From a virus: a stretch of DNA of 64,000 bases. The stretch's first letter is position 1. The number at the start of each line of letters is the position of its first letter. Location of the stretch: positions 26,113-90,112 of IMG/VR virus record IMGVR_UViG_3300032240_001151, one strand, 5' to 3'. The position numbers and the translations under genes were made by a program. Below are positions 1,361 to 64,000 of this stretch, one piece after another. The notes below the pieces were generated by a model, which saw only the letters and a list, made by a program, of their open reading frames with translations, had not been told where the DNA came from and made no database searches.

Positions 1361-2461
1361 ATGGCCGTATATAAAATATTTGCTGAAAAAGACACAACAC
1401 TGTACTCTGACTACGGTACATTAAACTCTGGTATGGATCCTATTTTGGAACTATCTAAGAATGTTAGTCTATTGTACCCATCGCAATCATCAGCAGCTAG
1501 ATTTCTAATTAAGTTTGCAGATGATGATATATCAGATGTAGTGTCTAATTATATTGGTACGGCATCATTTAGCAGTAGTTTAAAATTATACTTAGCAAAT
1601 TCCACAGGATTGCCTACTGATTATTCAGTTGAGGTTTTTCCTGTATCTGGTGTATGGGATATGGGCACTGGTAGATTTGGGGATAATCCAATACCTACTG
1701 ATGGTGCTTCATGGATATACAGGAAGTCCGGTGGAACATCTCCTTGGGAGCTCGCTAACTTTTCAGCAGGAGTAACTGCATCTTATACAGATATTAATGC
1801 TGGAGGTGGTACATGGTATACTTCATACAAATCTGAACAAAATTTTGGAGTGTATACAAATAAAGATGCAAACATAGATGTATCATCTGCTGTAATAGCT
1901 TTTGTTTCTAGCTCCATACCAAATGAAGGATTTATAGTAAAACTATCAGGATCTTTAGAATTTGATGAAGCTTATAATTTTACTCTTAATTATTTTGGTA
2001 GAGATACAAACACAGTTTATCCACCGGTATTAGAATTTAAGTGGGATGATTCTACTTATTCTATATCTGGATCTTCGATAACTGGGGTCGGATCTGCTGA
2101 CGTTAGATTATCTCTTGCAAATAATAAAGGAGAATTCAATCAAGATGAAATACATAGGTTTAGATTAAATGTAAGAGATCTAATACCTACAAGAACGTAT
2201 GCCACTTCTTCAATATACACAACACAGAAGTATTTGCCAGCTAGTACATACTACTCTATAAAGGATGTAAAATCAGACATAACTATAGTAGATTTTGATA
2301 ATAATTTTACAAAAGTAAGTGCAGATTTACAAGGAAATTATTTTGATATTTACATGTATGGATTAGAACCAGAAAGATATTATAAGATACTTATAAAAAC
2401 AGTGATTAGTGGGTCTACTTTGATATTTGATGATCAATACTTCTTTAAAGTAACTGAATAA
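1361..2461 (+). CDS. Putative virion structural (baseplate/tail) protein
   Basis: 366 aa, beta-rich, in baseplate operon; KDTTLYS...PILEL start and P.LEFKWDD resemble DNRLRE-type domains. Confidence 0.5.
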   Translation: MAVYKIFAEKDTTLYSDYGTLNSGMDPILELSKNVSLLYPSQSSAARFLIKFADDDISDVVSNYIGTASFSSSLKLYLANSTGLPTDYSVEVFPVSGVWDMGTGRFGDNPIPTDGASWIYRKSGGTSPWELANFSAGVTASYTDINAGGGTWYTSYKSEQNFGVYTNKDANIDVSSAVIAFVSSSIPNEGFIVKLSGSLEFDEAYNFTLNYFGRDTNTVYPPVLEFKWDDSTYSISGSSITGVGSADVRLSLANNKGEFNQDEIHRFRLNVRDLIPTRTYATSSIYTTQKYLPASTYYSIKDVKSDITIVDFDNNFTKVSADLQGNYFDIYMYGLEPERYYKILIKTVISGSTLIFDDQYFFKVTE

Positions 2462-2793
2462 TGGGGGAACAAGTTAACATAATCAGAAAAATATACGGTA
2501 AGAATACGTTTACAAATGTAGTAGATGTTCAGTTTAATCAATTAGTTCCCAAAGAACCAAAAGATATAACTCAAACTCCTGCTAGTGTAGATACTTTTTT
2601 TAGTGATTATGATACATTGTTTTATGATATACCTCCAAGTGGATCAGAAAATTCACATACAGAATTAGTAAGAAGAAGTTCTGAATACATAGGTTTAAGC
2701 ATAGATGATTTAAAAGAAGAAATAGCAAATTTAAGAGATGAAAACGTATCTCTAAAAACACAAATAGTATCACTTACAAACCCAACTAAATAA
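2461..2793 (+). CDS. Hypothetical protein with C-terminal coiled coil
   Basis: 110 aa, translationally coupled on both sides; IDDLKEEIANLRDENVSLK heptads. Confidence 0.6.
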   Translation: MGEQVNIIRKIYGKNTFTNVVDVQFNQLVPKEPKDITQTPASVDTFFSDYDTLFYDIPPSGSENSHTELVRRSSEYIGLSIDDLKEEIANLRDENVSLKTQIVSLTNPTK

Positions 2794-5700
2794 TGGTAAC
2801 GTCTGTAAATAAGATAAATGTTAATTTTGATAAGTACGATACTATAGACTCGTCTCTTATAGCCTCAAGGGATTATATTAGACAGTTTGGTCTAAAAGAA
2901 GATTACGTAGAGTACCATGTTTATACTAAGAACGGTAGTTTATTATACTCAAATTATAACTATAAAGATTATAGAATACCAGGAACTTTACAAGGATCTA
3001 CTAGTACATACACTGAAGAATTAGAGTTTTTTCCTGGAAATGTTGTAGAGAGTCTTGGATTTACATATGGCACTTATAATGTGCAGTTCAATGTTTATAG
3101 AAAGAAAATAGTAGATATTAATCAAAAGGTATTTTTTATAAAAGAAATATCTAATGATCGTAAAGAACTTAGAATATCTTCTAATGATTTATCAAATCTT
3201 ACTATAGAAGAAGGTGTTTTAAATTTTTTATATGAAATACAATCATCTTCTTATTTTAAAGACTTTCTTTTAAATTTTGGAGATAATAAAATAGTAAATG
3301 CTGTAAACATAGCATTAGATAAGAATACAGACCCTTATAGCATTTTAATAAAACTATACCAACCATTACCTACTGAGTTTGATATTAAGTCGTCTTTTTG
3401 GTTTGTTGAGGAGTTATCAGAGGCATCTGTTTTTGAAGTTAATCTAGCTCCACAACCAATACAAACAAATACACCTTTTTTAAAAGGGGCTAATTTTGAT
3501 ATTGAAGTTGATGAAAATTCTATAAAGCCTTCTGATTATGTAAACATAGACGATCTTTTATCAAACCAATCTCTAGGGGCTTATCAAGAATTACTAAACG
3601 CCCTTAATAAAAAGGGGATACAAATAAATGTAGACTATTCAGACTATAACAATTTTGTTCATTTCTCTTCTGCAAAAGAAAGGTTGTTAAATTTTAGATA
3701 TAAAGTAGAGTTAATTGAATCCTATCAATCAGATATTGATGCAATAAAAACAACTAATAACTATAATACTTCTTTTAATTCTAGTGCAAGTATTACATCT
3801 TTACAAAATAAGATAGATAATCTTGTTACTAATTTTGATGGATATGAATCATATTTGTATTATACATCAGAGTCTGCTGCTTGGCCAAAATCAAATTCGG
3901 ATAAGCCGTATACTTTGTATTCTTCAACTTCCACTGAGGTACAATACTGGTTAGGAAGCGATGATTATGATTCTGTTGTATACGGAGGGCAAATAAACTC
4001 AGCTTCTTTATATGATTTAGAAAATCAAGATAATCTATCTTATATTATACCTGAGTATATATCTGTAGATCCAGTAAATGATGGATATACTTTATTTTTA
4101 AATATGATAGGTCAGCATTTTGATAATGTGTGGATCTATATGAATAGCATTACTGATCTTTATAAAAACAATAATAGTTTAAATAAAGGTATATCAAAAG
4201 ATATTGTATACTATGCTTTAAGATCTCTTGGTATAAAACTGTATAATTCCAAAAGTAGTGAAAACTTATTTCAATATTTAATAGGTAGTTCTGTATCGGG
4301 CAGTTATTCTCCTACAGGATCTGCGTTTGATACTTTAGTAACGGCCTCAGCATATACTATACCAGGTCAAGACATACAAAAAGAGACTTTAAAAAGAATA
4401 TATCACAACTTACCCCTTCTTCTTAAATCAAAAGGCACTGCAAGAGGTGTAAGAGCTCTTATATCCTCTTTTGGCATACCAGATACCATATTATCAGTTA
4501 ATGAATTTGGAGGTGCAGATAAGCTTAATAACACTGTAGAGTACACTTACGATAGGTTTTCATATGCGTTAAGCATGTCAGGATCATATGTTAAATCTTA
4601 TTGGGGAGCTAAGTATGACTACCCTACAGCATCTGTGACTGATTACGTACCTAATACTATAGAATTTAGATTTAAACCGGATAAGAATTATTACTACTAC
4701 ACATCTTCTTTATTTGACCTTACTTTAAACAATGGTGGAAATAGAACTATATATGCTAATGTGAGCCCTGATACTAGTATTGGGTACCCATATAGTTTAG
4801 TAAGTTTATATATTAGTGGGAGTTCTGGATTTGATAGGACATCTGTATCACTTCCTATATACATGACAGCATCATCTGGAGAGTCTTTGTGGTGGAATAT
4901 AATGGTCAGGAGAAGAAATAATTATGATGTAACAGTAAATAATCAAGACCAATATTACGATCTATACGTAAAAAATAAAATAGGATTAAGGATAGGACAC
5001 GAAGCCTCTGCAAGCATCTCTGCACCAGGATCTTCAAGGTCTTCTTACAACTATGGCTGGAATAGAGTATCACAATCTTTATACTTGGGAGGAACTGGTT
5101 CTAAGTTTGTAGGAGATATTCAAGAACTTAGGTACTGGACATTACCTTTATCTGAATCTGTTTTTGATTATCATACTTTAAATCCTGAATCTATAAGAGG
5201 AAATTATAGCGGATCTTCATATAATGAACTGTCTGCAAGATTTCCATTAGGTAATGATTTGTATATTTACAATCATACCCTTACTGGATCGGTGTATTCT
5301 GTACAGCCTAACTATAAAGAAAGATCTGTAATAGCTGGAGCAACTGTAAAATCAGCTAGCTTTGTAGGGTTTACTAACGAGATTAACTATTCAACAAATG
5401 ATGAAGAGTACGTTACAGATTCACCTAACATGGTGTACTCTAACCCAGTAAATCAAAAAATTAGAATTGTAGACAATGAAATAACAGGCAGTGTACTGTC
5501 TCCATTTATAAGATTAGAAGACGAGTCTAGTATATACACAACTAAGGATGTTCATTATATTGATGCATCATTCTCTCCACAGAATGAACTAAATAAAGAT
5601 ATAATAGGACAGTATGGTAATTCAATAGATATAGATCAGTATATAGGTGACCCTAGAGATGATTATAAAAAAGAATATCCAGATCTTGTATCTTTTAATA

Positions 5701-8213
5701 AAGAATATTACGAAAAGTATTTTAAAAATTACAATTTAGCAGATTATATAAGACTAATAAAGTTCTTTGATAATTCTTTATTTAAGATGATCAAAGATTA
5801 CGTACCGGCAAGGTCGAGTGTACAAACTGGTCTTACAATAAAATCAACCATAATAGAAAGGCCAAAAGCTAAAAGAGCAGAAACTATTTTAACTGAGAAC
5901 TATAATTCAAAAGAAGGGACTATAGTAACCGGAGAAGTTTCTGCCAATAGTATATACACTAGTAGTTATGGAGATGGAAGAGATTTTTATACAGGACAAC
6001 TATCAGGTTCCTTAATTGACATTAATAATATATTCGCAGAAAAAAATTATAATCCATATCTCTTATACACTTCAAGCATAGATCACAATTTCTTTGATAG
6101 GAGTATTTTTAATACAACTATAAATAACGTATCAGCTAGTCAGGTATCAAAATTGTTTAAAAAAATAAATCCATATCAATTTGGAATGCTTGAGCCTGTA
6201 GAAATTTTAGATGAGAATTATACAGATCCAAGATACACTAGACCAAGATATGAAGGATCTAAAACAACTAGTTCAATTTATAATTTTTATACTCCAGGAG
6301 ATTCTTCTTATGGTAAAACAGCGGCAATAGACAAGAACTCAGAAAAATTTGCTTTTGCAAACAGCATTAACAAAAAGAATCTTAATTTTTATGATAAAAC
6401 AACCGTCAATATAAAATATCTTATAGATGCTACAGGATCAATAACTGAGTTGTCTAGAAGAAACTACCATATATTTGAAGTACAAAATATTTACAAGAAA
6501 GGAGATCTTGTTAACGTATCTTTGATGGATAAGTTAAATCCAACAAATCAATCTTCTTTAGATGGAGATAAAGTAATATGGGAAGGTGGGTTTACCTATT
6601 CTCCTATCTTATTTAGAGAGATTAATGAAGATCTTACTTTTACATACATAGAACCTACAGAAACAACAGAAAAAAAACTGGGATTAAAAGCTATAAATAC
6701 TAGTGGGTATACATTTCAAACTGTAGGAGACGCAGATGGGTCATTACCAGGAAATTTCACAACAACAAACACTGTGAATCCAAAAGTTATTTTTAAAATA
6801 GATGGAATAGCGGATAATACAAAATCTTTTTCTCAAAAAAGAATTCAAAGTAATAACTGGCCTTATTTGAAAATGCCACTAACAGATTATAATAAAGTAG
6901 CATATAAAGATTATACAAACCAAAATGTATATATAGCATACTCAAATCCATTTGAAGACGAAGCTTCTTATTACTCACTAGATTGGTTTATTCCTGGAGA
7001 TACTACTGAAGCAGCTGGAGGTTACAGGACAGATGACTTTAGTGGGAAACTAACAGTGGTCCAGTCGGGCACCGAGTATTATTCATACGTTACAGCCCCA
7101 AGAAACACTACCTATAAAGTAAACGTAGATCTGCCTATAAGAGCAAAGGCCAGAAATCCAGAAACTGCAGGTGAAAGAGCAGCTGAAAAAGGACCTTCTA
7201 TAGTTAAAATAATAGGAGTTTTAGAAGTACAAAAATCAGGAACATCTACTTGGGAATATCTAGACAATACAAATGCTGCTAACCCAGTTCCTTATGGGTA
7301 TACTAAGTTTACAGCTACTAATATTCCTATTGCAAACGGAGGATCTCCTAAATGGGATACTACTGTAGCGGCAGTTAATGAGGAGCTTAGTTTTATAAAA
7401 TTTTCTGGAGATGCACAAGGAGGGACTTATAATGGTAAAACAATAAGTCCTTATTTTGAAGGAAGGTGTCAATTGTTCAATAAAGAGATAGTCTTAAATC
7501 AGGGGGACAAATTAAGAGTTAGATTCTTTTTTGCAGAGGTAACAACATTTTTTAGAAGAAGTTCGGATATAAATTTTGAAATACAACCCGGAGATACGTC
7601 CAAAGCATTTTTTGAAGTATGGGATAAGATAACATCAAATACAACGCAAGTAACAACAACAACTATAGGCACAGACCCTCTCCACCCCATAATAGGGCCA
7701 TCCTCAGATAATAAAACAATAGTTTTTAATGATGAGGCATCTTTATTGTGGAATAAGGCAATATTCGAACCGCCAGACAGCACTAATCCATCTTCTATAA
7801 GTAACAGTTACAGCGCTATTGAGTATCCATTTTCTATAAAGGTATATGACGTAATAAGGTTTACTCAATTTAATGCAATAAAACCTGATTATTATATAGT
7901 AATGGAGGTTATAGAACCTCAAATACAGACCATATCATCAGGAACTGTAACAACATATATAGTAACTAGACCTGCTTCTATAGTATTAGATAGGGCCTAT
8001 AACCCAAATCAAATAACTGGGGCTAGCTTTGCAATTTTAAGAAAGGTAGAAGATGAGACTGTTATAATATTAGATTTTAAGAAGAAGGACGGACTTCCTT
8101 CAAATGCCTTTATGATTCCTTATAACATTAAACCAGAGATTAAGAGAGAAATTGGAAATATAGTAGCTCCATTGAAAGATACTATCCTTTCTAAAGTTCT
8201 TATCATAGGATAA
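2793..8213 (+). CDS. Large baseplate/tail structural protein (gp7-like region plus LamG-like segment)
   Basis: 1806 aa; RIYHNLPLLLKSKGTARGVRALISSFGIP resembles tail-protein-I/gp7-type wedge motif; TIEFRF...LYLGG...FVGDIQELRYW is LamG-like. Confidence 0.6.
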   Translation: MVTSVNKINVNFDKYDTIDSSLIASRDYIRQFGLKEDYVEYHVYTKNGSLLYSNYNYKDYRIPGTLQGSTSTYTEELEFFPGNVVESLGFTYGTYNVQFNVYRKKIVDINQKVFFIKEISNDRKELRISSNDLSNLTIEEGVLNFLYEIQSSSYFKDFLLNFGDNKIVNAVNIALDKNTDPYSILIKLYQPLPTEFDIKSSFWFVEELSEASVFEVNLAPQPIQTNTPFLKGANFDIEVDENSIKPSDYVNIDDLLSNQSLGAYQELLNALNKKGIQINVDYSDYNNFVHFSSAKERLLNFRYKVELIESYQSDIDAIKTTNNYNTSFNSSASITSLQNKIDNLVTNFDGYESYLYYTSESAAWPKSNSDKPYTLYSSTSTEVQYWLGSDDYDSVVYGGQINSASLYDLENQDNLSYIIPEYISVDPVNDGYTLFLNMIGQHFDNVWIYMNSITDLYKNNNSLNKGISKDIVYYALRSLGIKLYNSKSSENLFQYLIGSSVSGSYSPTGSAFDTLVTASAYTIPGQDIQKETLKRIYHNLPLLLKSKGTARGVRALISSFGIPDTILSVNEFGGADKLNNTVEYTYDRFSYALSMSGSYVKSYWGAKYDYPTASVTDYVPNTIEFRFKPDKNYYYYTSSLFDLTLNNGGNRTIYANVSPDTSIGYPYSLVSLYISGSSGFDRTSVSLPIYMTASSGESLWWNIMVRRRNNYDVTVNNQDQYYDLYVKNKIGLRIGHEASASISAPGSSRSSYNYGWNRVSQSLYLGGTGSKFVGDIQELRYWTLPLSESVFDYHTLNPESIRGNYSGSSYNELSARFPLGNDLYIYNHTLTGSVYSVQPNYKERSVIAGATVKSASFVGFTNEINYSTNDEEYVTDSPNMVYSNPVNQKIRIVDNEITGSVLSPFIRLEDESSIYTTKDVHYIDASFSPQNELNKDIIGQYGNSIDIDQYIGDPRDDYKKEYPDLVSFNKEYYEKYFKNYNLADYIRLIKFFDNSLFKMIKDYVPARSSVQTGLTIKSTIIERPKAKRAETILTENYNSKEGTIVTGEVSANSIYTSSYGDGRDFYTGQLSGSLIDINNIFAEKNYNPYLLYTSSIDHNFFDRSIFNTTINNVSASQVSKLFKKINPYQFGMLEPVEILDENYTDPRYTRPRYEGSKTTSSIYNFYTPGDSSYGKTAAIDKNSEKFAFANSINKKNLNFYDKTTVNIKYLIDATGSITELSRRNYHIFEVQNIYKKGDLVNVSLMDKLNPTNQSSLDGDKVIWEGGFTYSPILFREINEDLTFTYIEPTETTEKKLGLKAINTSGYTFQTVGDADGSLPGNFTTTNTVNPKVIFKIDGIADNTKSFSQKRIQSNNWPYLKMPLTDYNKVAYKDYTNQNVYIAYSNPFEDEASYYSLDWFIPGDTTEAAGGYRTDDFSGKLTVVQSGTEYYSYVTAPRNTTYKVNVDLPIRAKARNPETAGERAAEKGPSIVKIIGVLEVQKSGTSTWEYLDNTNAANPVPYGYTKFTATNIPIANGGSPKWDTTVAAVNEELSFIKFSGDAQGGTYNGKTISPYFEGRCQLFNKEIVLNQGDKLRVRFFFAEVTTFFRRSSDINFEIQPGDTSKAFFEVWDKITSNTTQVTTTTIGTDPLHPIIGPSSDNKTIVFNDEASLLWNKAIFEPPDSTNPSSISNSYSAIEYPFSIKVYDVIRFTQFNAIKPDYYIVMEVIEPQIQTISSGTVTTYIVTRPASIVLDRAYNPNQITGASFAILRKVEDETVIILDFKKKDGLPSNAFMIPYNIKPEIKREIGNIVAPLKDTILSKVLIIG

Positions 8214-8233
8214 CCTAAAATGATAATCCTTAA

Positions 8234-8241: not shown

Positions 8242-8257
8242 TATACAAATTACAAAA

Positions 8258-8917
8258 ATGGGATATTTAAACAATACTGTAGTAACTGTCGATGCAATTT
8301 TGACTAAAAAAGGCAGGGAACTCCTAGCCAGAAACGATGGATCTTTTAGAATTACACAATTTGCAATGGCTGATGACGAGATTGATTATACACTATATAA
8401 TACAACACACCCTTCAGGATCAGCTTTTTATGGTGAGGCTATAGAAAATATGCCACTTCTGGAAGCATTTCCAGATGAAAATCAAATTATGAAGTATAAG
8501 TTGGTTACCCTACCTAGAGGTACCAGCAAACTCCCAGTTATCAATGTTGGATATGCTAGCATAGTTCTTAAACAAGCTGCTTCTATAGTAATAACTCCAC
8601 AGACTTTGAACTATCTGGGAGCCACTTCTACATTTGAGCCTAGTGGCTATGTAGTTACTGTAGGCGATGCTAGATTGTTGTCTACCTTCACTGGTATCGG
8701 AATAGATACAACCAACCTTGGCATATCTGATCTAAGTACAACTACAGGTACTCAAATAAGTAAGACTGCCATAGGTACTTCTTTCACATTGGTAGGAACC
8801 ACAATAGATACCTTATTCGGAAGCACATTAACAAGTCTCAGCACAACTATAACAGTGGTTGGAAGGGATTCAGGTGCTAGAATTACCATTCCATTAACTG
8901 TAAAAAAGAATAAATAA
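8258..8917 (+). CDS. Conserved large-phage structural protein (baseplate/tail-collar-like)
   Basis: DAILTKKGRELLA...ITQFAMADDEIDY resembles tail-collar fibre N-terminal motif. Confidence 0.55.
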   Translation: MGYLNNTVVTVDAILTKKGRELLARNDGSFRITQFAMADDEIDYTLYNTTHPSGSAFYGEAIENMPLLEAFPDENQIMKYKLVTLPRGTSKLPVINVGYASIVLKQAASIVITPQTLNYLGATSTFEPSGYVVTVGDARLLSTFTGIGIDTTNLGISDLSTTTGTQISKTAIGTSFTLVGTTIDTLFGSTLTSLSTTITVVGRDSGARITIPLTVKKNK

Positions 8918-9945: not shown

Positions 9946-9962
9946 ATTCGAGATGACTACAT

Positions 9963-15280: not shown

Positions 15281-15284
15281 AAAT

Positions 15285-15971: not shown

Positions 15972-15973
15972 TT

Positions 15974-16747: not shown

Positions 16748-16748
16748 A

Positions 16749-17357: not shown

Positions 17358-17358
17358 T

Positions 17359-47479: not shown

Positions 47480-47713
47480 ATGGCGTTAATAAGATCAAAG
47501 CAGCTTAACAAGAATATGACCGGAGATTTCACTTTTTCTGGAATGACAACTTTTATACAAACATCTTCAGCACATCCAGCAATTATAATAAGTGGGTCAG
47601 AAAAAATATCAGCTACTTCTGTATATAGTGGATCTATAACTATACAAAATTTAGGAACTTTTGCTGACACTGGAAGCAATGCCGTAATTGATCTTGGAGA
47701 TAACTCTTTTTAG
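47480..47713 (+). CDS. Small structural protein
   Basis: 77 aa, MALIRSKQL start, SGS-rich, ends IDLG. Confidence 0.55.
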   Translation: MALIRSKQLNKNMTGDFTFSGMTTFIQTSSAHPAIIISGSEKISATSVYSGSITIQNLGTFADTGSNAVIDLGDNSF

Positions 47714-53052: not shown

Positions 53053-53410
53053 TGATATAAATTACGAATGGGGTTTCAATCCTTTACAGTCGTACCCCAC
53101 ATCTTCAGGTCAAAATGATGTAGTATTTATGGTACATTGGCAATTATATGGTACTACAGGATCTATAGAGGACGGTACATACTACTCTGGAGGAGTAATA
53201 GGAGTTCAACCTGTTGAATATAATAGTGGGTCTGATTTTATATCATTTAATGACCTTACCAAAGATATTGTATACGGGTGGGTTACTGCGTCCATGGGAC
53301 AAGAAAAAGTAGATAGCTACTATGAAAATATAAAAAATCAAATACAAGACAAAATAACTCCAAAAGCAATAACACAGCAAGCACCTTGGATAACAGGATC
53401 TATACAATAA
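53042..53410 (+). CDS. Tail fibre-associated small protein
   Basis: DVVFMVHW...FISFNDLTKDIVYGWV...APW, typical of genes following S74 fibres. Confidence 0.6.
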   Translation: MDISDINYEWGFNPLQSYPTSSGQNDVVFMVHWQLYGTTGSIEDGTYYSGGVIGVQPVEYNSGSDFISFNDLTKDIVYGWVTASMGQEKVDSYYENIKNQIQDKITPKAITQQAPWITGSIQ

Positions 53411-56601: not shown

Positions 56602-57423
56602 ATGGTTTTATTTTTATACGGAAATAAAGATGTAGATCATCAAGCTATATCATGCATAAAATCTTTATCTAATAAAATAACAGATGATGTTAAGATAGTA
56701 TACTATACTATAGGTTTTGAAACTGATTTTTCTCTTAAAAATCTTACACCTATAAAAATAGATTATAAACCTCAATATCCAACTTTTCATTATTATAAAG
56801 CTGAGTTATCACTTTTAACAATGAGATTATTTCCTAATGAGTATTATATGTTTTCTGATACTGATATTTTATACTCTAGGAGGTTTTCTTTTGATAATAT
56901 GAAGAGTAATTTATCATACCCACTTGCTAGTTTTGGTCCTCATGAATATCCTTATTTATGGGAAAAAAGAGGAGATGCTACTATTATATATGATGAGTCA
57001 AAATTAATGGAGTATTTTAATGTTAAAGAAAGATCTCAAAGATATGTGTGGTCTTGCATTTATTCTTTTAGCGAAGAGTCTACCGATTTTTTTGAGGAGT
57101 ACACTTCTATGTGTAATAACAGATATTTGTTAAATAGAAGAAAAGATTATTATCCTATGCATGATGAAACATCTTTTAATGTATGTCTTTGGAAAAGAAA
57201 CGCAGATAAAAATTTAGGGTACTCTTTTTTAAATACACATCTTTTAGACTCAGTAAAAAAAGTAGAAGAAAACGATATAAAACAACAAAGATTAGGTACA
57301 AATTTAGATAGTCAAGGAAATGACTGGGAATATATTCATGATTCTAAAAGTATAATAGGATACCATGGATTTAAAGAAAAAAAAGATATAGAGGACACTT
57401 TAAAATATCTTCTTAGTTTTTAA
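56602..57423 (+). CDS. Putative GT-A glycosyltransferase
   Basis: FSDTDIL (DxD), HDETSFNV.LW, GYHG; inside the glycosyltransferase cluster. Confidence 0.5.
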   Translation: MVLFLYGNKDVDHQAISCIKSLSNKITDDVKIVYYTIGFETDFSLKNLTPIKIDYKPQYPTFHYYKAELSLLTMRLFPNEYYMFSDTDILYSRRFSFDNMKSNLSYPLASFGPHEYPYLWEKRGDATIIYDESKLMEYFNVKERSQRYVWSCIYSFSEESTDFFEEYTSMCNNRYLLNRRKDYYPMHDETSFNVCLWKRNADKNLGYSFLNTHLLDSVKKVEENDIKQQRLGTNLDSQGNDWEYIHDSKSIIGYHGFKEKKDIEDTLKYLLSF

Positions 57424-59505
57424 ATGAAAATAATAAATGTCACTCCAGGATTAATACCAATACCTCCTAATGGTTGGGGAGCTGTGGAGAAAATAATATG
57501 GGAGACGCACAATGCTTTATTAGAGTTAGGTCATGATTCTCAAATACTGTATTTAGATGATGTAAAAGATTATGACGTAGTTCATATTCATGTAGCTAAT
57601 CTAGCAAACATAGCTCACGAAAGAGGCATTTCATATTATTTTACAATGCATGATCATCATGCTTTTTTATATGGTAAAGAGTCAGAAGTTTTTAAAGAAA
57701 ACATGACTGCAATCAAAAATGCTAAAAAAGCATTCGTCCCTGCTAAATTTTTGGTTGGTTATTTTGGAAATATACCGGAGTATTTTTCTCATGGAGTTAA
57801 CACAGAATACTTCACTCCTAGTAAAACAGAGAATCCAAAAATATTGTGCGTAGCAAATAATGGATTTATACATGATCAATCAGAGGACAGGAAGGGATTT
57901 GGATACGCTATAGAGGCTGCTAAGAGGCTAAACTATCCAATAACTATAGCTGGACCTATTAATAACAAAAAGTACTTTGAAAAGTATCCATCTGACTATA
58001 ATAACCTTACTATTTTGTATGACCTTACAGAAGATCAGTTGAGAGATTTATACAAAGATCACAGCTGCTTTTTGCATCTATCTACTTTAGAAGCAGGACA
58101 TCCAAATTTAACTATATTAGAGGCTATGGCATCAGGATTACCGGTAATAGGTACTTATGAAGATGGCAATAGTCTAGAAGGTTTGATAAGAGTTAATAGA
58201 AATACAGATGAAACTGTAGAAGCACTAAGTAAAGTATTTCATAATCCTATTGAGTACTTGCATTATTCTAAAGCAGCACGAAAACAAGCCATGCAGCTAT
58301 CATGGAAAAATAGAACAAAAGAACTTATAAAATATTACACAATGAGTTTTAAAGAACAATTAATAAAAAGTTATAACAACACCAATATTTTGGGAATAAA
58401 ATCTAAACCTACTATCCCTTCTTTTAATATAAATTTTATAGGAGGGGCGTTTTTTGAAATTATAGGAGGGCCTGATAGGGAATATGATGTACAATTTATA
58501 GATAAAAAAACAAAAAAAATACATCATAAAGGACGTATCAAAAAAGATCATTGGATAAAAGCATCTATTTCTTATTGTGTAGATTGGGATATATTTGTAG
58601 ACGATGGTATAGATTCTTATGAGTTCCATACTGACTATTTGGGAAAGAGAGTTTATATAGCTTTAGATTCTAAAGCCTTGGGAGATACTCTTGCGTGGTT
58701 TCCTTACGTAGAAGAATTTAGACGTAAACATAATTGTAAAGTTGTATGTTCTACTTTTTGGAACCATTTTTTTGAATCAGAATATCCGGAAATTGAATTT
58801 GTAAAACCTGGTGACGTAGTACATAATTTATATGCTATGTATACAATAGGGTGGTTTTATGATAGTGATGGATCGTTTGATCTTAAAAAGACTCCAGGAG
58901 ATTTTAGGAATCAGTCTCTTCAAAAGACCGCTTCAGACATCTTAGGTCTTGATTTTGTACCAATTAAGCCAAAGATAAAGAAACCTGTACCTGGTTTAAA
59001 AGAAAAAAAAGTAGTGATTGCAATGCACTCTACAGCACAGTGTAAGTACTGGAACAATCCTGATGGTTGGCAGGGATTAGTAGATTACCTATTAGATAGT
59101 GGTTATGAAGTTATTATGTCTTCTAAAGAAGAAGATGGGTATATGGGTAATAAATACCCTAAAGGAGTTACTTTATTAATGCATAATAGCATAGAATCAG
59201 TAATGCTTGAGATTTTAACAGCCGAAATGTTTATAGGTATTAGTAGTGGTCTTAGTTGGCTAGCCTGGGCTTTAGGAGCTAAAACGTGCCTTATCTCAGG
59301 AATTACATCACCAGAGTCAGATTTTGAACCTACTGTGAGAATAATCCCTAAAGAATCTGTTTGTAGGTTTTGTTTTAACAAAGAAAGGCTAGACGCAGGA
59401 GATTGGAACTGGTGTCCTAAGCACAAAGGGACTTCAAGACAGTTTGAATGTACTAAAACTATTACAAGTGTAGATGTAATACAAAAAATATCTAAATACA
59501 TCTAA
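57424..59505 (+). CDS. GT4 domain fused to autotransporter O-heptosyltransferase (TibC/AAH-type) domain
   Basis: IPPNGWGAVEK, EAGHPNLTILEAMASGLPV; then SKALGDTLAWFPY..EFRRKH.C, KYWNNPDGW, FIGISSGLSWLAWA, CRFC...WCPKHKGTSRQFECTK. Confidence 0.85.
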   Translation: MKIINVTPGLIPIPPNGWGAVEKIIWETHNALLELGHDSQILYLDDVKDYDVVHIHVANLANIAHERGISYYFTMHDHHAFLYGKESEVFKENMTAIKNAKKAFVPAKFLVGYFGNIPEYFSHGVNTEYFTPSKTENPKILCVANNGFIHDQSEDRKGFGYAIEAAKRLNYPITIAGPINNKKYFEKYPSDYNNLTILYDLTEDQLRDLYKDHSCFLHLSTLEAGHPNLTILEAMASGLPVIGTYEDGNSLEGLIRVNRNTDETVEALSKVFHNPIEYLHYSKAARKQAMQLSWKNRTKELIKYYTMSFKEQLIKSYNNTNILGIKSKPTIPSFNINFIGGAFFEIIGGPDREYDVQFIDKKTKKIHHKGRIKKDHWIKASISYCVDWDIFVDDGIDSYEFHTDYLGKRVYIALDSKALGDTLAWFPYVEEFRRKHNCKVVCSTFWNHFFESEYPEIEFVKPGDVVHNLYAMYTIGWFYDSDGSFDLKKTPGDFRNQSLQKTASDILGLDFVPIKPKIKKPVPGLKEKKVVIAMHSTAQCKYWNNPDGWQGLVDYLLDSGYEVIMSSKEEDGYMGNKYPKGVTLLMHNSIESVMLEILTAEMFIGISSGLSWLAWALGAKTCLISGITSPESDFEPTVRIIPKESVCRFCFNKERLDAGDWNWCPKHKGTSRQFECTKTITSVDVIQKISKYI

Positions 59506-59599: not shown

Positions 59600-62500
59600 A
59601 TGGCCCAAATACTCAAACTCCGCAGGAGCGCTATACCTGGCGCTAAACCTACAATTTCTCAAATTGAATTTGGGGAAGTAGCTATGAACACAGCTGATGG
59701 AAAGCTGTTCATGAAAGTTAGTGGTAGCGGTGGGGACAGTGTAATAGAGATAGGTGCAAACTCAGCAACCGGCAACGTATCAGGGTCGATATATTACATA
59801 CCAGTATTTACAGGTCCTAATTCAGTAGGCACAAGTTCAATATACCAATCTGGGTCTTTCACATCAATAAGAAATGCCACAGCACCACAAGATCCAAACA
59901 ATCCGGATATATTATATGTAAATGGGGATGGTGTTGATACATATAACCTTATATCTGCGCATGGTAATTTAAATGATTTTGTACAAATAAATGTACAAAA
60001 CTATAATTCTGGGGTATCTTCTTCATCAGATATAGTAGCAACTTCTGATATAGGAACAGAAACTAGCTCTTATGTAAACTTAGGTATAAACTCTAGCAAT
60101 TATAATATTGTTGGATCCGTAGGTGGTGCTCTAGATGCCTACTTATATGCCAGTGATAGCAATTTATTGATAGGTAGTACCGCTACAGATAAAAAAGTAA
60201 TAATATTTACAGGAGGACAAAATGCTCTTGAAAATGCAAGAGTGTATATAGATCCAGGAGGTACAGTAGGTATAAACACGTCCACTATCACTAGTGGTAA
60301 TCCTGAGTCTTTGTATATAGAAGCTATTAATAATCTTACATATAATTTAATTACAGCTAAATCTAATGTAAATAGTTATAGCCAGATTAATATTCAAAAT
60401 AGAAGTGATGGACCAAATGCATCATCTGATTTTGTAGCTACGGCAGATACTGGAGACGAGAATCAAAGGTATATAGACATGGGTATAAACTCTTCTGGGT
60501 ACTCCGCAGGTTCTTATATAGGCGGATCCTTAGATGCATACCTATATTCTAATTCTGAGAATTTATATATTGGTAATGCTGCTACTGGAAAAGAGATTAT
60601 AATATTCAATGGAGGGTATAATACCGAAACAAATGCTAGAATTTGGATACATGATCAAGGCACAATAGGCATAAATACAGAAGTATACAATTATACAAAT
60701 CCACCATCTCTTCAAATACAAGCTGCTAATAATAGCACCTATAATTTAGTACAAATAAAAGGAGATGTTAATAACTACTCTCAGGTAGCGATTACAAATG
60801 CTAGTCCTGGGAATATGGCATCTTCTGACTTAGCATTGTATAATAACGTAGACTCTGATAATCAATTATCTGGTTACATAGATTTAGGTATAAACTCCAC
60901 TAACTATGTACCAAATCCAGATTATCCTGGATATGGAGGACATGCTTATCTTTTTACTGATTCTAATAATTTAATAATAGGGTCTATAGCTGATACTGCA
61001 TCTTTAAGTTTTTTTGTAGGAAGTAAAAATCAAGACACCGGAAGCAAACTATCATTAAATTCTAATAACCAGCATACAATGACTGGTTCATTAGATATAT
61101 CTGGATCTTTATATATAGCATCTAGTTTAGGAATTACTGCATTTTCGTCTAACATAGATACTTTATTATTAACGGGTTCTGCTATTATAACTGGATCTTT
61201 AATTGTTACTGGTAGTGTAAATGTTGAAGGCGGTATAACTGGGTCTTTATATGGAACAGCAAGCTGGGCAGAAAATGTTAGAACTGCATCTTATTCTAAC
61301 ACCTCTATTAGCGCCTCATACTCAGAAACAGCATCATCAGCAGATAATTTTACTGTAAGAGGAACTCTAACTGCTCAAACTCTTATAGTTCAAACTATAA
61401 CATCTTCAATTGAATATGTTACCGGATCTACTCACTTTGGGACTGTTATTCAAAATACTCACGAATTTACTGGATCCGTAGCAATATCGGGATCTTTAAC
61501 AATAAACGGTATTCCATACACTTCTGCTACCTCAGGCACATCAGGTACAAGTGGCATATCTGGTTCAACCGGATCTAGCGGTACGTCTGGAACTTCTGGA
61601 AGTACTGGAACATCAGGTACTTCTGGATCAAGCGGTTCATCTGGAACTTCTGGACAAACAGGTAGCTCCGGTACGTCTGGTACAAGTGGCTCATCTGGAA
61701 TATCAGGATCAAGCGGATCATCTGGTTCAACAGGTAGCAGTGGTTCGACAGGTACTTCAGGAACATCTGGAAGTTCAGGTATTAATGGAACTAGCGGCTC
61801 TACTGGTACATCCGGGTCCTCTGGATCATCTGGTTCTACAGGAACTTCAGGCAGTAGTGGATCAACAGGCACCTCTGGAACTAGCGGTTCAACTGGTAGT
61901 TCTGGCTCAACAGGAAGCTCTGGTAGCAGCGGAAGTTCTGGCTCAACAGGTAGTTCAGGCACATCTGGAAGCACAGGATCTTCTGGTACCTCAGGAACCA
62001 GCGGTAGTTCTGGAACATCAGGTTCTACTGGTAGTAGCGGATCTACTGGTACATCAGGTACTAGCGGTACATCTGGTTCTACAGGAACTTCAGGTACTAG
62101 CGGTACATCTGGTTCATCAGGAACAGGATTTAATACAATTAATAGCCCAGCTATCGGTAGAGTGCTAATATCTGATAATAGCAATAACGCAGCAACTGCC
62201 TCAGCAGTAATAACTGTTAATGGAGGAGTAAATATATCAGGAAGCACTGTTGTTACTGGATCATTAACAGTATCTAATACTATAACAGCTCAAACCCTTA
62301 TAGTTCAAACTATAACTTCTTCAGTTGAATTTGTAACAGGATCTACTCACTTTGGAACTATAGTAACTAATACACATGAGTTTACTGGATCCTTATCTAT
62401 ATCTGGTTCTCTTACAATAAATGGTACGTCTTATACAGCTGCTACTTCTGGAACATCAGGTACTTCTGGATCATCAGGAACTAGAGGTTCTTCTGGATCA

Positions 62501-64000
62501 AGCGGTTCATCTGGAAGCACAGGTTCTTCTGGCTCTACTGGTAGTTCTGGCTCATCTGGTTCTACAGGTACATCTGGTTCTTCTGGAACTAGCGGTTCTA
62601 CGGGAACAAGTGGATCTTCAGGATCAACTGGTACTAGTGGTACATCCGGTTCCACGGGAACTTCAGGTAGTACAGGAACCAGTGGTTCAAGTGGAAGTAC
62701 TGGTACAAGCGGAAGCTCAGGAACAAGTGGATCAAGCGGGTCTAGTGGAAGTACCGGTACATCAGGTTCTAGTGGTAGTACAGGAAGTAGTGGCTCATCA
62801 GGATCTACTGGTAGCTCAGGTAGCACTGGCACCTCAGGTTCAACAGGAACGTCAGGTAGTAGTGGTTCTACTGGTACAAGTGGTAGTACAGGATCGTCTG
62901 GCTCTAGTGGTAGTTCTGGTTCTTCTGGCAGCACTGGTACAAGTGGGACATCTGGCTCATCCGGCACTTCTGGAAGTACAGGAACATCAGGTAGTAGTGG
63001 GACAGGATTTAACACTATAAGTAACCCAGCACTAGGTAGAGTATTAGTGTCTGATGGAACAACAAATGCAGCTACAGCGTCAGCTACATTAATTGTAAAC
63101 AATGAAAATGTTGTTATTACAGGAAGTTTAATCACTAGTGGATCTAACAAATTAATAGGAAATACACAATTAACAGGTTCATTGTCAATTTCTGGATCTA
63201 CAACTCAAATAGGAAGTAATACTTTAATTGGAAACACTGTATTATCAGGTAGTCTTATAATATCAGGGTCTCAAGGTACAACAATACCAAATATTCAAAT
63301 TTATGGTGATGTAAATCAAACAGGCTATACTAGATATTTACCAATATCATCAACTATAGATACTACAGTATCCGCCTCTTATATTTTTGTAAGTGGATCT
63401 ACAGGTGATTTGTATTTTTCTCAAAATGGTGCTGGATATTCTAACCTTGTTCGTTTACGTTGGTTAGAAGGAAATTTATATACCGGTTTATTAGGAGGAG
63501 GTGTCCTAAGTTCAACACTAGGATCAACAACATTTAACTTATCCTCAGGTTCAGGCATTATAGTAACATTAAATGCTAGTACAGGAAGTGCTGACCCATA
63601 TCCAACAGTACAATATATTACTTGGCCTAATTTTACAAATGTACCCATTACCAATTCAGGTTCAGCTAAAATTACGTACGTTAGCATAACATTAGCCGGA
63701 GCTATTAATCAACAAATAGTCCCTATTGGTTCATCAGATATTAATCAATGGGATACTCAAGTTGAAATAGGTGTTGTATTACATTTGTCTGGTAGTGTAT
63801 CTACCGGTGTTTATAATGCACCTCAATTAGCATACGGGTTTGCTCAAAGAACAGATGACTTTTTAAGAGCTTTTGGGCCATTAAAAATATCAGGCCATAC
63901 ATTACAAGCTAGTGGTAGTTCACCAACATTAAGTATTAAAAAATCAAGCGGTACTGCTTACAATAATGGATCTAACTATGTTAATAATCCAAATCATCCA
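59600..64000 (+). CDS. Long tail fibre protein (at least 1467 aa, runs off window; absent from ORF track)
   Basis: MAQILKLRRSAIPGAKPTISQIEFGEVAMNTADGKLF is a gp34-like fibre N-terminus; frame spot-checked at several points to 64000; three 133-aa repeats and two Gly-Ser/Thr tracts. Confidence 0.85.
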   Translation, partial: MAQILKLRRSAIPGAKPTISQIEFGEVAMNTADGKLFMKVSGSGGDSVIEIGANSATGNVSGSIYYIPVFTGPNSVGTSSIYQSGSFTSIRNATAPQDPNNPDILYVNGDGVDTYNLISAHGNLNDFVQINVQNYNSGVSSSSDIVATSDIGTETSSYVNLGINSSNYNIVGSVGGALDAYLYASDSNLLIGSTATDKKVIIFTGGQNALENARVYIDPGGTVGINTSTITSGNPESLYIEAINNLTYNLITAKSNVNSYSQINIQNRSDGPNASSDFVATADTGDENQRYIDMGINSSGYSAGSYIGGSLDAYLYSNSENLYIGNAATGKEIIIFNGGYNTETNARIWIHDQGTIGINTEVYNYTNPPSLQIQAANNSTYNLVQIKGDVNNYSQVAITNASPGNMASSDLALYNNVDSDNQLSGYIDLGINSTNYVPNPDYPGYGGHAYLFTDSNNLIIGSIADTASLSFFVGSKNQDTGSKLSLNSNNQHTMTGSLDISGSLYIASSLGITAFSSNIDTLLLTGSAIITGSLIVTGSVNVEGGITGSLYGTASWAENVRTASYSNTSISASYSETASSADNFTVRGTLTAQTLIVQTITSSIEYVTGSTHFGTVIQNTHEFTGSVAISGSLTINGIPYTSATSGTSGTSGISGSTGSSGTSGTSGSTGTSGTSGSSGSSGTSGQTGSSGTSGTSGSSGISGSSGSSGSTGSSGSTGTSGTSGSSGINGTSGSTGTSGSSGSSGSTGTSGSSGSTGTSGTSGSTGSSGSTGSSGSSGSSGSTGSSGTSGSTGSSGTSGTSGSSGTSGSTGSSGSTGTSGTSGTSGSTGTSGTSGTSGSSGTGFNTINSPAIGRVLISDNSNNAATASAVITVNGGVNISGSTVVTGSLTVSNTITAQTLIVQTITSSVEFVTGSTHFGTIVTNTHEFTGSLSISGSLTINGTSYTAATSGTSGTSGSSGTRGSSGSSGSSGSTGSSGSTGSSGSSGSTGTSGSSGTSGSTGTSGSSGSTGTSGTSGSTGTSGSTGTSGSSGSTGTSGSSGTSGSSGSSGSTGTSGSSGSTGSSGSSGSTGSSGSTGTSGSTGTSGSSGSTGTSGSTGSSGSSGSSGSSGSTGTSGTSGSSGTSGSTGTSGSSGTGFNTISNPALGRVLVSDGTTNAATASATLIVNNENVVITGSLITSGSNKLIGNTQLTGSLSISGSTTQIGSNTLIGNTVLSGSLIISGSQGTTIPNIQIYGDVNQTGYTRYLPISSTIDTTVSASYIFVSGSTGDLYFSQNGAGYSNLVRLRWLEGNLYTGLLGGGVLSSTLGSTTFNLSSGSGIIVTLNASTGSADPYPTVQYITWPNFTNVPITNSGSAKITYVSITLAGAINQQIVPIGSSDINQWDTQVEIGVVLHLSGSVSTGVYNAPQLAYGFAQRTDDFLRAFGPLKISGHTLQASGSSPTLSIKKSSGTAYNNGSNYVNNPNHP
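61525..63002 (+). repeat. Two Gly-X-Y (Ser/Thr) coding tracts (~61525-62125, 62443-63002)
   Basis: Same GSS/GTS/GST triplets as the 49357 fibre. Confidence 0.9.

What the first reader, a model, noticed from the sequence alone, without database searches (positions are those of the whole stretch)
1361..64000. [S/T]-G-S motif enriched in exterior virion proteins: candidate virion-wide O-glycosylation sequon
Seen: outside the long repeats, isolated [ST]-G-S (and [ST]-A-S) turns recur in predicted outer proteins. Examples: 1361 ORF (LSGSL, ISGSS, ISGST, VTASY); 2793 ORF (VSGSY, PTGSA, MSGSY, ISGSS, YSGSS, LTGSV, ITGSV, LSGSL); 8917, 9963 and 20308 ORFs (ISGSG, FSGSF, TSGSQ, ASGSD); neck (YTGSI, VSGSS); 47480, 47767 and 53042 ORFs; both fibres. 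The major capsid protein has six copies clustered in one central segment (~42197-42568: WTGSA, ASGSL, ITGSA, VSGSG, GTGSG, LTGSN). By eye, portal, scaffold, primase and the glycosyltransferases nearly lack the motif, and terminase has one. Known: TibC/AAH enzymes glycosylate Ser in short strand-loop-strand turns. Inference: unrelated folds converged on one motif because a phage-encoded enzyme glycosylates it, which would coat the virion in glycan.
Basis: partly seen in the sequence, partly recalled or inferred. Interest (0 to 1): 0.88.

Follow-up and report, generated by a model that had tools for sequence, protein, structure and literature searches.

The report
Ser-Gly-Ser turn motif in phage virion
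A short Ser/Thr-Gly-Ser turn is truly over-represented in this phage's tail, fibre and capsid proteins, and the phage carries a TibC-type protein sugar-transferase beside its serine-rich fibres, but related phages without that enzyme carry much the same motif, so it looks more like a structural building block that the enzyme may use than a virion-wide sugar code.

Summary
Observation confirmed. Outside the two repeat fibres, [ST]GS occurs 56 times against 14.7 expected from within-protein shuffles. It needs Ser at position 3: SGT, TGT, NGS and AGS are not enriched. It is confined to the tail/baseplate/neck/capsid/fibre blocks (54 vs 10.6), not the enzymatic and head-internal blocks (2 vs 4.0). 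T4 structural proteins show none (7 vs 11.6).

Interpretation partly supported. ORF 57424-59505 ends in a true TibC/Aah-family domain (TIGR04414, 271 bits against a cut-off of 200; catalytic Asp and four iron-finger Cys kept). It lies 95 bp upstream of a (Gly-Ser/Thr-Ser/Thr)n fibre gene. That pairing recurs in 28 of 43 viral lineages against 2 of 77 control loci. This scan has found the same pairing before on other DNA.

However, four relatives that lack the enzyme, three of them complete genomes, still show 2.1-2.4-fold enrichment. Their orthologous baseplate proteins carry equal or higher counts. In one baseplate family the sites are conserved columns.

Most likely the isolated motif is a lineage-wide strand-turn-strand element, and the enzyme's main target is the serine-rich fibres. 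A virion-wide sequon remains possible (about 0.2).

The parts
1361..2461 (+). 366-aa protein just after the baseplate-wedge gene; 3 [ST]GS and 2 [ST]AS
   Evidence: 3 vs 0.65, p 0.03. Orthologues in 5 relatives carry 3-7 sites. [ST]GS and [ST]AS interchange at the same alignment columns.
2793..8213 (+). 1806-aa structural protein; 10 [ST]GS
   Evidence: 10 vs 1.9, p 0.0005. Orthologues in relatives carry 2-20 sites.
8917..9945 (+). 342-aa baseplate-region protein; 4 [ST]GS at residues 73, 75, 176, 192
   Evidence: 4 vs 0.65. Across 120 homologues the mean is 4.96 vs 0.86 expected, and these four columns carry the motif in 101-115 of 120. In the AlphaFold model (pLDDT 81.5) the sites lie at strand ends and turns.
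9963..12830 (+). 955-aa protein with 8 [ST]GS and long Thr/Pro/Ala linkers
20308..20607 (+). 99-aa protein; 2 [ST]GS
   Evidence: 2 vs 0.04. It matches the C-terminal part of immuto gp165.
41672..43324 (+). gp23-type major capsid protein; 6 [ST]GS at residues 177, 207, 224, 259, 269, 297
   Evidence: All sites in 117 aligned homologues fall at residues 129-300. AlphaFold puts them at strand ends of a beta-rich module, residues 166-280, pLDDT 75-90.
44124..45341 (+). neck protein (head-tail adaptor Ad2-like); 3 [ST]GS
47480..47713 (+). 77-aa protein; 3 [ST]GS
   Evidence: 3 vs 0.31
47767..49329 (+). 520-aa protein with a PKD domain; 9 [ST]GS, six of them in the first 105 residues
49357..53052 (+). 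fibre 1: 192 proline-free Gly-X-Y triplets in 5 runs (X/Y 94% Ser/Thr), flanked by Phi-[ST]GS-Phi modules
   Evidence: (PHROG collagen-like tail fibre)
53042..53410 (+). 122-aa protein; 3 [ST]GS
   Evidence: 3 vs 0.20
54638..56599 (+). GT4-type glycosyltransferase fused to an FkbM methyltransferase; 0 [ST]GS
56602..57423 (+). 273-aa protein of unknown family inside the enzyme block
   Evidence: no Pfam, PHROG or NCBIfam match; conserved in G001
57424..59505 (+). GT4-type domain fused to a TibC/Aah-family protein O-glycosyltransferase domain (aa 350-691)
   Evidence: PDB 4RAP E 6e-46. TIGR04414 scores 271 bits against a cut-off of 200. Catalytic and iron-finger residues are kept.
59600..64000 (+). 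fibre 2 (cut by the contig end): 128 Gly-Ser/Thr-Ser/Thr triplets in 2 runs, plus 30 isolated [ST]GS
   Evidence: It starts 95 bp after the TibC-like gene.
12894..18450 (+). separate sugar island (GT60-like PF11397, GT4-like, GT25, GT11, FkbM, UDP-galactopyranose mutase); not tied to the motif by any test here

Best explanation
Two things are superimposed.

(1) Phi-x-Phi-[ST]-G-S-Phi-x-Phi is a short strand-turn-strand building block. It is used throughout the tail, baseplate, sheath and fibre proteins of this freshwater T4-like phage lineage. It is partly fixed at conserved positions, it interchanges with [ST]-A-S, and it exists whether or not the phage has a TibC-like enzyme.

(2) This phage also has a cytoplasmic TibC/Aah-family serine O-glycosyltransferase fused to a GT4 domain. 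It has a GT4-FkbM partner and sits between two fibre genes. Its most likely substrates are the serines of the proline-free (Gly-Ser/Thr-Ser/Thr)n arrays and of the [ST]GS strand-loop-strand modules that flank them. The partner enzymes would extend and methylate the sugar before or during fibre assembly.

Shown: the enrichment and its specificity; the enzyme's family membership; the conserved enzyme-fibre gene pairing; and the persistence of the motif without the enzyme. Inferred: that any serine is glycosylated, which sugar is used, and whether isolated sites on capsid, neck or baseplate are also hit.
For: Enrichment and Ser specificity. Not a DNA repeat: 35 distinct 9-mers for 59 sites.

Strand-turn-strand context: hydrophobic residues make up 0.61 at -1, 0.50 at -3, 0.46 at +3 and 0.51 at +5, against a background of 0.33. 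Sites lie at strand ends in both models.

Lineage-wide and enzyme-independent:
- Genome-wide observed/expected is 2.31, 2.14, 2.36 and 2.44 in four TibC-negative relatives, against 3.77 and 3.39 in the two TibC-positive genomes.
- Baseplate orthologues: 3,5 | 7,3,5,3; 4,3 | 8,2,7,4; 10,6 | 20,2,12,5 (TibC+ | TibC-).
- Motif columns are conserved in 101-115 of 120 homologues.
- A tail-sheath family has 4-8 sites vs about 0.8 expected in 80 of 80 loci.

Enzyme. Among 58 distinct phage sequences, Asp110, Lys230 and Trp305 are kept in 58/58 and the four Cys in 57/58.

Pairing with fibres: 28 of 43 lineages against 2 of 77 control loci, and both exceptions lie on TibC-positive contigs. In 12 lineages the fibre ORF begins 54-95 bp downstream. 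Long Ser/Thr Gly-X-Y arrays are found only in TibC-positive genomes. Mel-JY01 and megaphage LR756501 show the same neighbours.
Against: No sugar has been observed on any protein. TibC-positive genomes do have a somewhat higher genome-wide ratio (3.4-3.8 vs 2.1-2.4). The MCP has 6, 5 and 4 sites in this sub-lineage and 5 in an independent TibC-positive relative (G007), against 1 in each of four TibC-negative relatives. That fits some sequon-like gain on the capsid. All relatives keep other glycosyltransferases (a conserved four-gene cassette), so 'enzyme-independent' means only independent of TibC. A Gly-Ser-Ser array is not the beta-helix that TibC is known to act on. Arg286, a sugar-binding residue of TibC, is Val here and is Arg in only 14 of 58 phage sequences. 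No heptose-pathway gene was found, so the donor sugar is unknown.
Confidence: 0.55

Rival explanations
1. The TibC-like enzyme glycosylates Ser in every exposed [ST]GS strand-loop-strand, so capsid, neck, baseplate and fibres are all coated, and selection for that coat drove the motif into unrelated folds.
For: The enzyme family is named for strand-loop-strand acceptors (TIGR04414 description). TibC modifies Ser but not Thr, in S-G-G and S-A-A contexts (passages of PMC4358343). This phage's motif also demands Ser. MCP counts are 6, 5, 4 and 5 in TibC-positive relatives against 1, 1, 1 and 1 in TibC-negative ones. At homologous MCP columns the TibC-negative proteins have Ser/Thr-rich but non-motif strings. 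The enzymatic blocks hold 2 sites against 4.0 expected.
Against: The same enrichment and the same Ser specificity exist without the enzyme. Baseplate orthologues are as rich or richer without it. Other TibC-positive phages have MCPs with 0-2 sites: Mel-JY01 1, G037 2, and several with 0-2. An MCP with 5 sites sits on a 95-kb fragment with no TibC-like gene, though that fragment is only 57% complete. Many sites are conserved columns rather than drifting sequons.
Confidence: 0.2
2. The motif is a sequon for a different, lineage-wide enzyme: the conserved glycosyltransferase cassette (immuto genes 89, 90 and 92 and their homologues). The TibC-like enzyme is an add-on for the collagen-like arrays.
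For: The cassette is present in immuto, G003, G004, G005 and G001. The gene-89 homologue is present in G007, Mel-JY01 and RM378, and absent from T4 and HTVC008M. This parallels the observed/expected ratios of 2.1-3.4 (and RM378 2.6 on a small sample) against 0.6 and 1.6.
Against: The correlation is fully confounded with phylogeny. The cassette proteins have no informative relatives: the best PDB hit is a chlorovirus GT4 at E 0.0016, and there is no GtfA/GtfB-like match. They could equally modify DNA or host envelope. HTVC008M fibre-like proteins still reach about 2-3-fold without the cassette.
Confidence: 0.12
3. Nothing at [ST]GS is glycosylated. The motif is purely structural, and the phage's glycosyltransferases act on other targets: Thr/Pro linkers, host surface glycans or DNA.
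For: Motif columns are conserved. The motif occurs without TibC. The first sugar island sits among Thr/Pro-linker proteins, not among [ST]GS-rich ones.
Against: It leaves unexplained the very strong linkage of the TibC-like gene to Gly-Ser-Ser fibre genes. It also leaves unexplained the strict conservation of catalytic residues in a family known only as a protein serine glycosyltransferase.
Confidence: 0.12
4. The enrichment is an artefact of composition: Ser/Thr/Gly-rich patches or chance.
For: Motif-bearing proteins are richer in Ser, Thr and Gly than the enzymes.
Against: Within-protein shuffles already control for composition. Other words made of the same residues are flat: SGT, TGT, SSS 18 vs 20.5, GSG 14 vs 10.7, SGG, TGG. 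T4 structural proteins of similar composition give 7 vs 11.6.
Confidence: 0.01

Closest known systems
TibC-TibA and Aah-AIDA-I of E. coli (bacterial autotransporter heptosyltransferases, TIGR04414)
   Same: The C-terminal domain passes the equivalog cut-off. The catalytic Asp, Thr226, Lys230, Trp305 and the four iron-finger Cys are kept, and the position of TibC Pro300 is Ser as in Aah. The enzyme is cytoplasmic. Its gene lies directly upstream of a repetitive Ser-rich surface protein gene; the operon order of aah-aidA and tibC-tibA is recalled, not checked. Acceptors are serines next to Gly or Ala in short turns.
   Different: The partner is a phage fibre, not an autotransporter beta-helix. 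The enzyme is fused to a GT4 domain and clustered with a GT4-FkbM fusion. Arg286 is not kept. No heptose genes were found, so the sugar may differ. Nothing is known about dodecamer formation here.
Mycobacteriophage virion glycosylation (capsid and tail-tube proteins glycosylated by phage-encoded glycosyltransferases)
   Same: A phage-encoded enzyme decorates its own virion proteins in the cytoplasm. The concept is in print: 24 papers in the library cite 'virion glycosylation' together with mycobacteriophages (search listing and abstract starts only). Details of the original study are recalled, not read.
   Different: The enzyme families, the hosts and (as recalled) the targets differ: C-terminal Ser/Thr tails there, rather than an internal turn motif or collagen-like arrays here.
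Chlorovirus and giant-virus capsid/fibril glycosylation by virus-encoded enzymes
   Same: Virus-encoded glycosylation machinery acts on capsid or fibril proteins with non-canonical acceptor sites (search listing and abstract starts only).
   Different: Those are eukaryotic viruses. In chloroviruses (recalled) the glycans are N-linked. No TibC-type enzyme is involved.
Glycosylated collagen-like proteins (Bacillus exosporium BclA; Thr-glycosylated worm cuticle collagen)
   Same: These are proline-poor or hydroxyproline-free Gly-X-Thr/Ser triplets whose O-glycosylation stabilises or decorates the triple helix. This is recalled knowledge and no call supports it.
   Different: Here X and Y are almost only Ser/Thr (94-97%). 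The linked enzyme family is different, and triple-helix formation is untested.
Serine-rich repeat adhesins with GtfA/GtfB
   Same: Cytoplasmic O-glycosylation of S-x-S repeats by GT4-type enzymes (recalled).
   Different: No detectable similarity of the phage GT pairs to solved GtfA/GtfB chains.

Membership tests
BAHT / TIGR04414 (TibC, Aah) | Sequence scores above the curated equivalog cut-off | tested here: met
   271.2 bits against a cut-off of 200, residues 350-691. PDB 4RAP E 5.9e-46 over chain residues 37-384. LPS heptosyltransferases reach only E 0.55.
BAHT / TIGR04414 (TibC, Aah) | Catalytic base Asp-110 and sugar-binding Thr-226, Lys-230, Trp-305 | tested here: met
   Positions were hand-mapped on the alignment against the residues named in PMC4358343. 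Across 58 phage sequences: Asp 58/58, Lys 58/58, Trp 58/58, Thr 48 plus Ser 9.
BAHT / TIGR04414 (TibC, Aah) | Sugar-binding Arg-286 | tested here: not met
   It is Val in this protein and Arg in only 14 of 58 phage sequences. This points to a different donor or binding mode.
BAHT / TIGR04414 (TibC, Aah) | Four-cysteine iron finger (Cys-339, 342, 358, 370) | tested here: met
   All four align and are kept in 57 of 58 phage sequences.
BAHT / TIGR04414 (TibC, Aah) | Substrate is an autotransporter beta-helix passenger | tested here: not met
   No autotransporter is present. The neighbours are collagen-like fibres. It therefore works like a BAHT but has a different substrate class.
BAHT / TIGR04414 (TibC, Aah) | ADP-heptose donor | tested here: inconclusive
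   No SIS_2 (GmhA-type) or cytidylyltransferase-like gene was found in G000, G001 or G007. Mel-JY01 has one weak hit. The host could supply the donor, and G000 is only 51% complete.
BAHT / TIGR04414 (TibC, Aah) | Dodecameric ring assembly | not testable with these tools
   -
Protein O-glycosylation sequon | Motif more frequent than composition predicts, with positional specificity | tested here: met
Protein O-glycosylation sequon | Motif density tracks presence of the modifying enzyme across relatives | tested here: not met
   Isolated sites reach 2.1-2.4-fold in four TibC-negative genomes, and orthologue counts are equal or higher there. The feature is met only for the long Gly-Ser-Ser arrays.
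Protein O-glycosylation sequon | Sites are solvent-exposed | tested here: inconclusive
   Sites lie at strand ends and turns in two models. No coordinates were available to compute accessibility, and the MCP model has a mean pLDDT of only 66.
Protein O-glycosylation sequon | Sugar detected on the residue | not testable with these tools
   -
Collagen-like repeat protein | Long uninterrupted Gly-X-Y periodicity | tested here: met
   192 and 128 triplets; PHROG collagen-like tail-fibre families
Collagen-like repeat protein | Pro-rich or charged X/Y positions that stabilise the triple helix | tested here: not met
   X/Y positions are 94-97% Ser/Thr.

The most novel reading that the evidence does not exclude
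The phage's TibC-type enzyme and its GT4/FkbM partners put a methylated oligosaccharide on the serine of every exposed Phi-[ST]-G-S-Phi strand-loop-strand. That would include six sites on the outer module of the major capsid protein, so the whole virion (head, neck, baseplate and fibres) would carry a phage-made glycan coat addressed by a three-residue sequon.
Probability: 0.2. Interest if true: 0.85.

Novelty: new variant of a known kind. Interest (0 to 1): 0.55.

Why it matters
If the fibres, or more of the virion, are glycosylated by a TibC-type enzyme, this would be a widespread self-glycosylation system of environmental phages built on an enzyme family known only from bacterial adhesins. 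At least 43 lineages in IMG/VR carry it. It would also offer a simple acceptor rule that could be tested and reused for glyco-engineering. The negative part matters too. A striking, highly specific tripeptide enrichment can be a lineage-wide structural habit rather than a modification code. The enzyme-negative relatives identified here are the natural controls for any experiment.

Tried and rejected
- DNA-level repeat: rejected. There are 35 distinct 9-mers for 59 isolated sites.
- Local Ser/Thr/Gly-rich patches: rejected, because sibling tripeptides are flat.
- Generic property of T4-like virions: rejected for T4 itself. HTVC008M fibre-like proteins do show about 2-3-fold, so a mild background exists.
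- MCP as a reporter of the enzyme: suggestive within this sub-lineage and in G007. It is contradicted by Mel-JY01 (1), G037 (2) and several TibC-positive phages with 0-2 sites. Most MCP-bearing contigs are fragments of unknown status. Not usable as proof.
- Tail-sheath family as a second reporter: uninformative. All 80 homologues have 4-8 sites and the enzyme status of the short contigs is unknown.
- Fold search for the 8917 protein: no match with E <= 0.001. PDB sequence searches for the 8917 and 1361 proteins found nothing useful.
- Pfam and PHROGs gave no family for most motif-bearing proteins, so 'exterior' rests on gene order and synteny with immuto.
- Heptose-pathway genes: none found.
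- GtfA/GtfB-like identity of the conserved cassette: not supported.
- Literature. 'autotransporter heptosyltransferase' plus 'phage' returned 2 papers, both reviews seen only as listing. 'Mel-JY01' returned 0. The collagen-like/phage/glycosylation search gave nothing on this pairing (passages of PMC10202952 read mention collagen-like proteins and a glycosyltransferase separately). Supplements of papers were not opened.

Full report
WHAT THE WINDOW IS. The window is the last 64 kb of a 90-kb viral contig (G000, 51% complete by CheckV). It comes from a low-GC T4-like phage. Its gp23-type capsid protein is 53% identical to that of Flavobacterium phage vB_FspM_immuto, and the gene order is syntenic with that phage. 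Independent annotation exists for the following:
- baseplate wedge, lysozyme, terminase, portal, prohead protease, MCP, PhoH, a neck adaptor and a gp15-like protein;
- two collagen-like fibres;
- two sugar islands.
Most other motif-bearing proteins match no Pfam or PHROG family.

Seventeen of 58 ORFs carry [ST]GS. Against 2000 within-protein shuffles, nine non-repeat proteins exceed expectation with p <= 0.005 and one with p 0.03. An unbiased scan of every tripeptide in the 55 non-fibre proteins puts SGS (30 vs 7.3, z 8.0) and TGS (26 vs 7.4, z 6.7) just behind the Thr/Pro/Ala linker words. SGT, TGT, NGS, AGS and TAS are flat, and SAS is mildly raised (16 vs 6.6). The signal is therefore specific: Ser or Thr, then Gly (less often Ala), then Ser. 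It is not a Ser/Thr/Gly-patch effect. It is not a DNA repeat either (35 distinct 9-mers for 59 sites). By genome block, the tail/baseplate/neck/MCP/fibre-adjacent proteins have 54 sites vs 10.6 expected. The enzymes, replication, packaging and head-internal proteins have 2 vs 4.0. Flanks are hydrophobic at -3, -1, +3 and +5 (0.46-0.61 vs a background of 0.33), the signature of two short strands joined by a turn.

STRUCTURE. The MCP model (mean pLDDT 66) has a well-predicted beta-rich module at residues 166-280 (pLDDT 75-90). Five of the six sites sit at the ends of its strands and the sixth sits in the following loop. The best fold matches are T4 gp23 and gp24. By position this module corresponds to the gp23/gp24 insertion domain, which I recall lies on the outside of the T4 capsid; I did not superpose the structures. 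In 117 aligned MCP homologues every [ST]GS falls at residues 129-300. Two sites are widely kept (224 in 92/117, 297 in 103/117) and the others come and go. The 8917 protein model (pLDDT 81.5) also places its four sites at strand ends and turns. No coordinates were available, so burial was not computed.

THE ENZYME IS REAL. ORF 57424-59505 is a GT4-type domain fused to a domain (aa 350-691) with these properties:
- It matches TibC (PDB 4RAP) at E 6e-46, while LPS heptosyltransferases reach only E 0.55.
- It passes NCBI's equivalog model for 'autotransporter strand-loop-strand O-heptosyltransferase' (271 bits, cut-off 200).
- Mapping the alignment onto the residues named in the eLife 2014 TibC paper (passages) shows that the catalytic Asp-110, Thr-226, Lys-230, Trp-305 and all four iron-finger cysteines are kept.
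- Pro-300 is Ser, as in Aah, and Arg-286 is Val.
- In 58 distinct phage homologues, Asp, Lys and Trp are invariant, the cysteines are kept in 57/58, Ser replaces Pro-300 in 58/58, and Arg-286 is kept in only 14.
The same paper reports that TibC modifies Ser but not Thr, at Q-N-S-G-G and N-T-S-A-A. No heptose-pathway genes were found in this contig or in two relatives, so the donor sugar is open.

WHAT TRACKS WITH THE ENZYME. The gene lies between two fibre genes. Their Gly-X-Y arrays (192 and 128 triplets) are 94-97% Ser/Thr at X and Y. Each array is preceded and followed by Phi-[ST]GS-Phi modules. The second fibre starts 95 bp after the enzyme gene.
- Phage genome records: homologues of the enzyme in Microcystis phage Mel-JY01 and in a 735-kb uncultured phage also lie beside Thr/Ser-Gly-Ser-Ser repeat proteins.
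- IMG/VR: the domain occurs in 129 stretches. The best 80 loci collapse to 43 lineages at 90% identity. Twenty-eight of these have an ORF with at least 10 Gly-[ST]-[ST] triplets within 10 kb, and in 12 that ORF begins 54-95 bp downstream.
- Control: in 77 MCP-centred loci only 2 have such an ORF, and both lie on contigs that carry the enzyme. Odds ratio 70, p 2.6e-14.
- Fully read genomes: long Ser/Thr arrays occur in both enzyme-positive ones and in none of four enzyme-negative ones.
This agrees with several earlier follow-ups of this scan on other DNA. I found no paper in the held library that describes it.

WHAT DOES NOT TRACK WITH THE ENZYME. Immuto and three IMG/VR relatives rated 100% complete lack any TibC-like gene. 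None of this phage's glycosyltransferases has a homologue in immuto. Yet, with Gly-X-Y runs masked, genome-wide observed/expected is 2.44, 2.31, 2.14 and 2.36 in those four. It is 3.77 here and 3.39 in the enzyme-positive relative G001. The same preference for Ser at position 3 holds (SGT is near 1 in three of the four).
- Orthologue by orthologue, the 1361, 8917 and 2793 proteins carry as many or more sites without the enzyme.
- Aligned orthologues show [ST]GS and [ST]AS or [ST]SS replacing each other in the same columns.
- In 120 homologues of the 8917 protein the mean is 4.96 vs 0.86 expected, and four columns hold the motif in 101-115 sequences.
- A tail-sheath family found beside one TibC-like gene has 4-8 sites vs about 0.8 expected in all 80 loci.
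- Outside the lineage, T4 structural proteins give 7 vs 11.6. Pelagiphage HTVC008M gives 1.57 overall with fibre-like proteins at 2-3-fold. RM378 gives 2.6 on a small sample. All three are enzyme-negative.

THE CAPSID IS THE ONE AMBIGUOUS CASE. MCP counts are 6 (here), 5 (G001) and 4 (G025), which form one sub-lineage, and 5 in G007, an enzyme-positive relative only 54% identical. The four enzyme-negative relatives have 1 each. At the homologous columns those relatives have Ser/Thr-rich strings that miss the motif. Against this:
- Mel-JY01 (positive) has 1 and G037 (positive) has 2.
- More distant enzyme-positive MCPs have 0-4.
- An MCP with 5 sites lies on a 95-kb fragment (57% complete) without the gene.
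I treat this as a hint, not evidence.

OTHER ENZYMES. A four-gene cassette (two GT-B enzymes, a small protein and a GT2) is shared by immuto, G003-G005 and G001. Its first gene is also found in G007, Mel-JY01 and RM378, but not in T4 or HTVC008M. The cassette may well lie in the missing half of this phage. Its targets are unknown. Because it follows phylogeny exactly, it neither explains nor excludes anything yet.

VERDICT. The enrichment is real, specific and structurally coherent. The idea that a phage enzyme glycosylates serines of this kind is well founded for the fibres. The claim that this enzyme drove the motif into unrelated virion proteins is contradicted by the enzyme-negative relatives. 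The most economical reading is that [ST]GS is a lineage-wide strand-turn-strand element. On this reading a TibC-type enzyme, whose family recognises just such elements, was recruited chiefly for the Ser-rich fibres. A virion-wide coat remains possible at about 0.2.

BASIS OF LITERATURE AND RECALLED STATEMENTS. PMC4358343: passages. PMC10202952: passages. All other papers: search listings and abstract starts only. Recalled without a call: the original mycobacteriophage glycosylation study, BclA, glycosylated worm collagen, the aah-aidA and tibC-tibA gene order, and the outer position of the gp23 insertion domain.

Noticed in passing
window 9963-20295: Six sugar enzymes lie together: GT60-like PF11397 (E 1e-59), GT4-like, GT25, GT11, FkbM and UDP-galactopyranose mutase. 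They sit between proteins with long Thr/Pro/Ala linkers; TPT occurs 68 times vs 8.2 expected. This is a second, separate candidate protein-glycosylation island. The GT60-like protein has relatives only in four Xanthomonas/Stenotrophomonas jumbo phages among 50,697 phage records.
   Followed up: partly
window 9963-12830 and 20308-20607: The N-terminus of the 955-aa ORF and the separate 99-aa ORF both match one 357-aa immuto protein (gene 165). It looks as if one structural gene had been split by the roughly 7.5 kb (12.8-20.3 kb) that hold the sugar island.
   Followed up: partly
immuto 49128-52985; G001 5690-10458; G003 62973-66981; G004 99918-103782; G005 126799-130621: A conserved four-gene cassette (two GT-B glycosyltransferases of about 480 and 435 aa, a 150-aa protein and a GT2) is shared by all relatives read in full. 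Its function is unknown and it is probably in the missing part of this phage.
   Followed up: partly
L018 7117-8886 and loci L231-L309: A tail-sheath-like family of about 585 aa carries 4-8 [ST]GS against about 0.8 expected in all 80 loci examined.
   Followed up: partly
L007 (Microcystis phage Mel-JY01) 635-3052: An 805-aa + strand ORF with Thr/Ser-Gly-Ser-Ser repeats overlaps a CDS annotated on the opposite strand (739-2298). The deposited annotation of this repeat region may be in the wrong frame or strand.
   Followed up: no
window 49357-53052, last ~150 residues: By eye, the C-terminus of fibre 1 resembles the self-cleaving chaperone domain of many tail fibres and endosialidases. This was not tested.
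   Followed up: no
L229 (Rhodothermus phage RM378) 15773-16924: RM378, a distant MCP relative, also carries a UDP-galactopyranose mutase gene, as this phage does at 17359-18450.
   Followed up: no
G000 contig 12920-15722 (upstream of the window): Two Ser/Thr/Gly-rich proteins (523 and 406 aa) have no [ST]GS at all (0 vs 0.9 and 0 vs 0.8 expected) and match only PHROGs of unknown function. They are exceptions to the pattern if they are virion proteins.
   Followed up: partly
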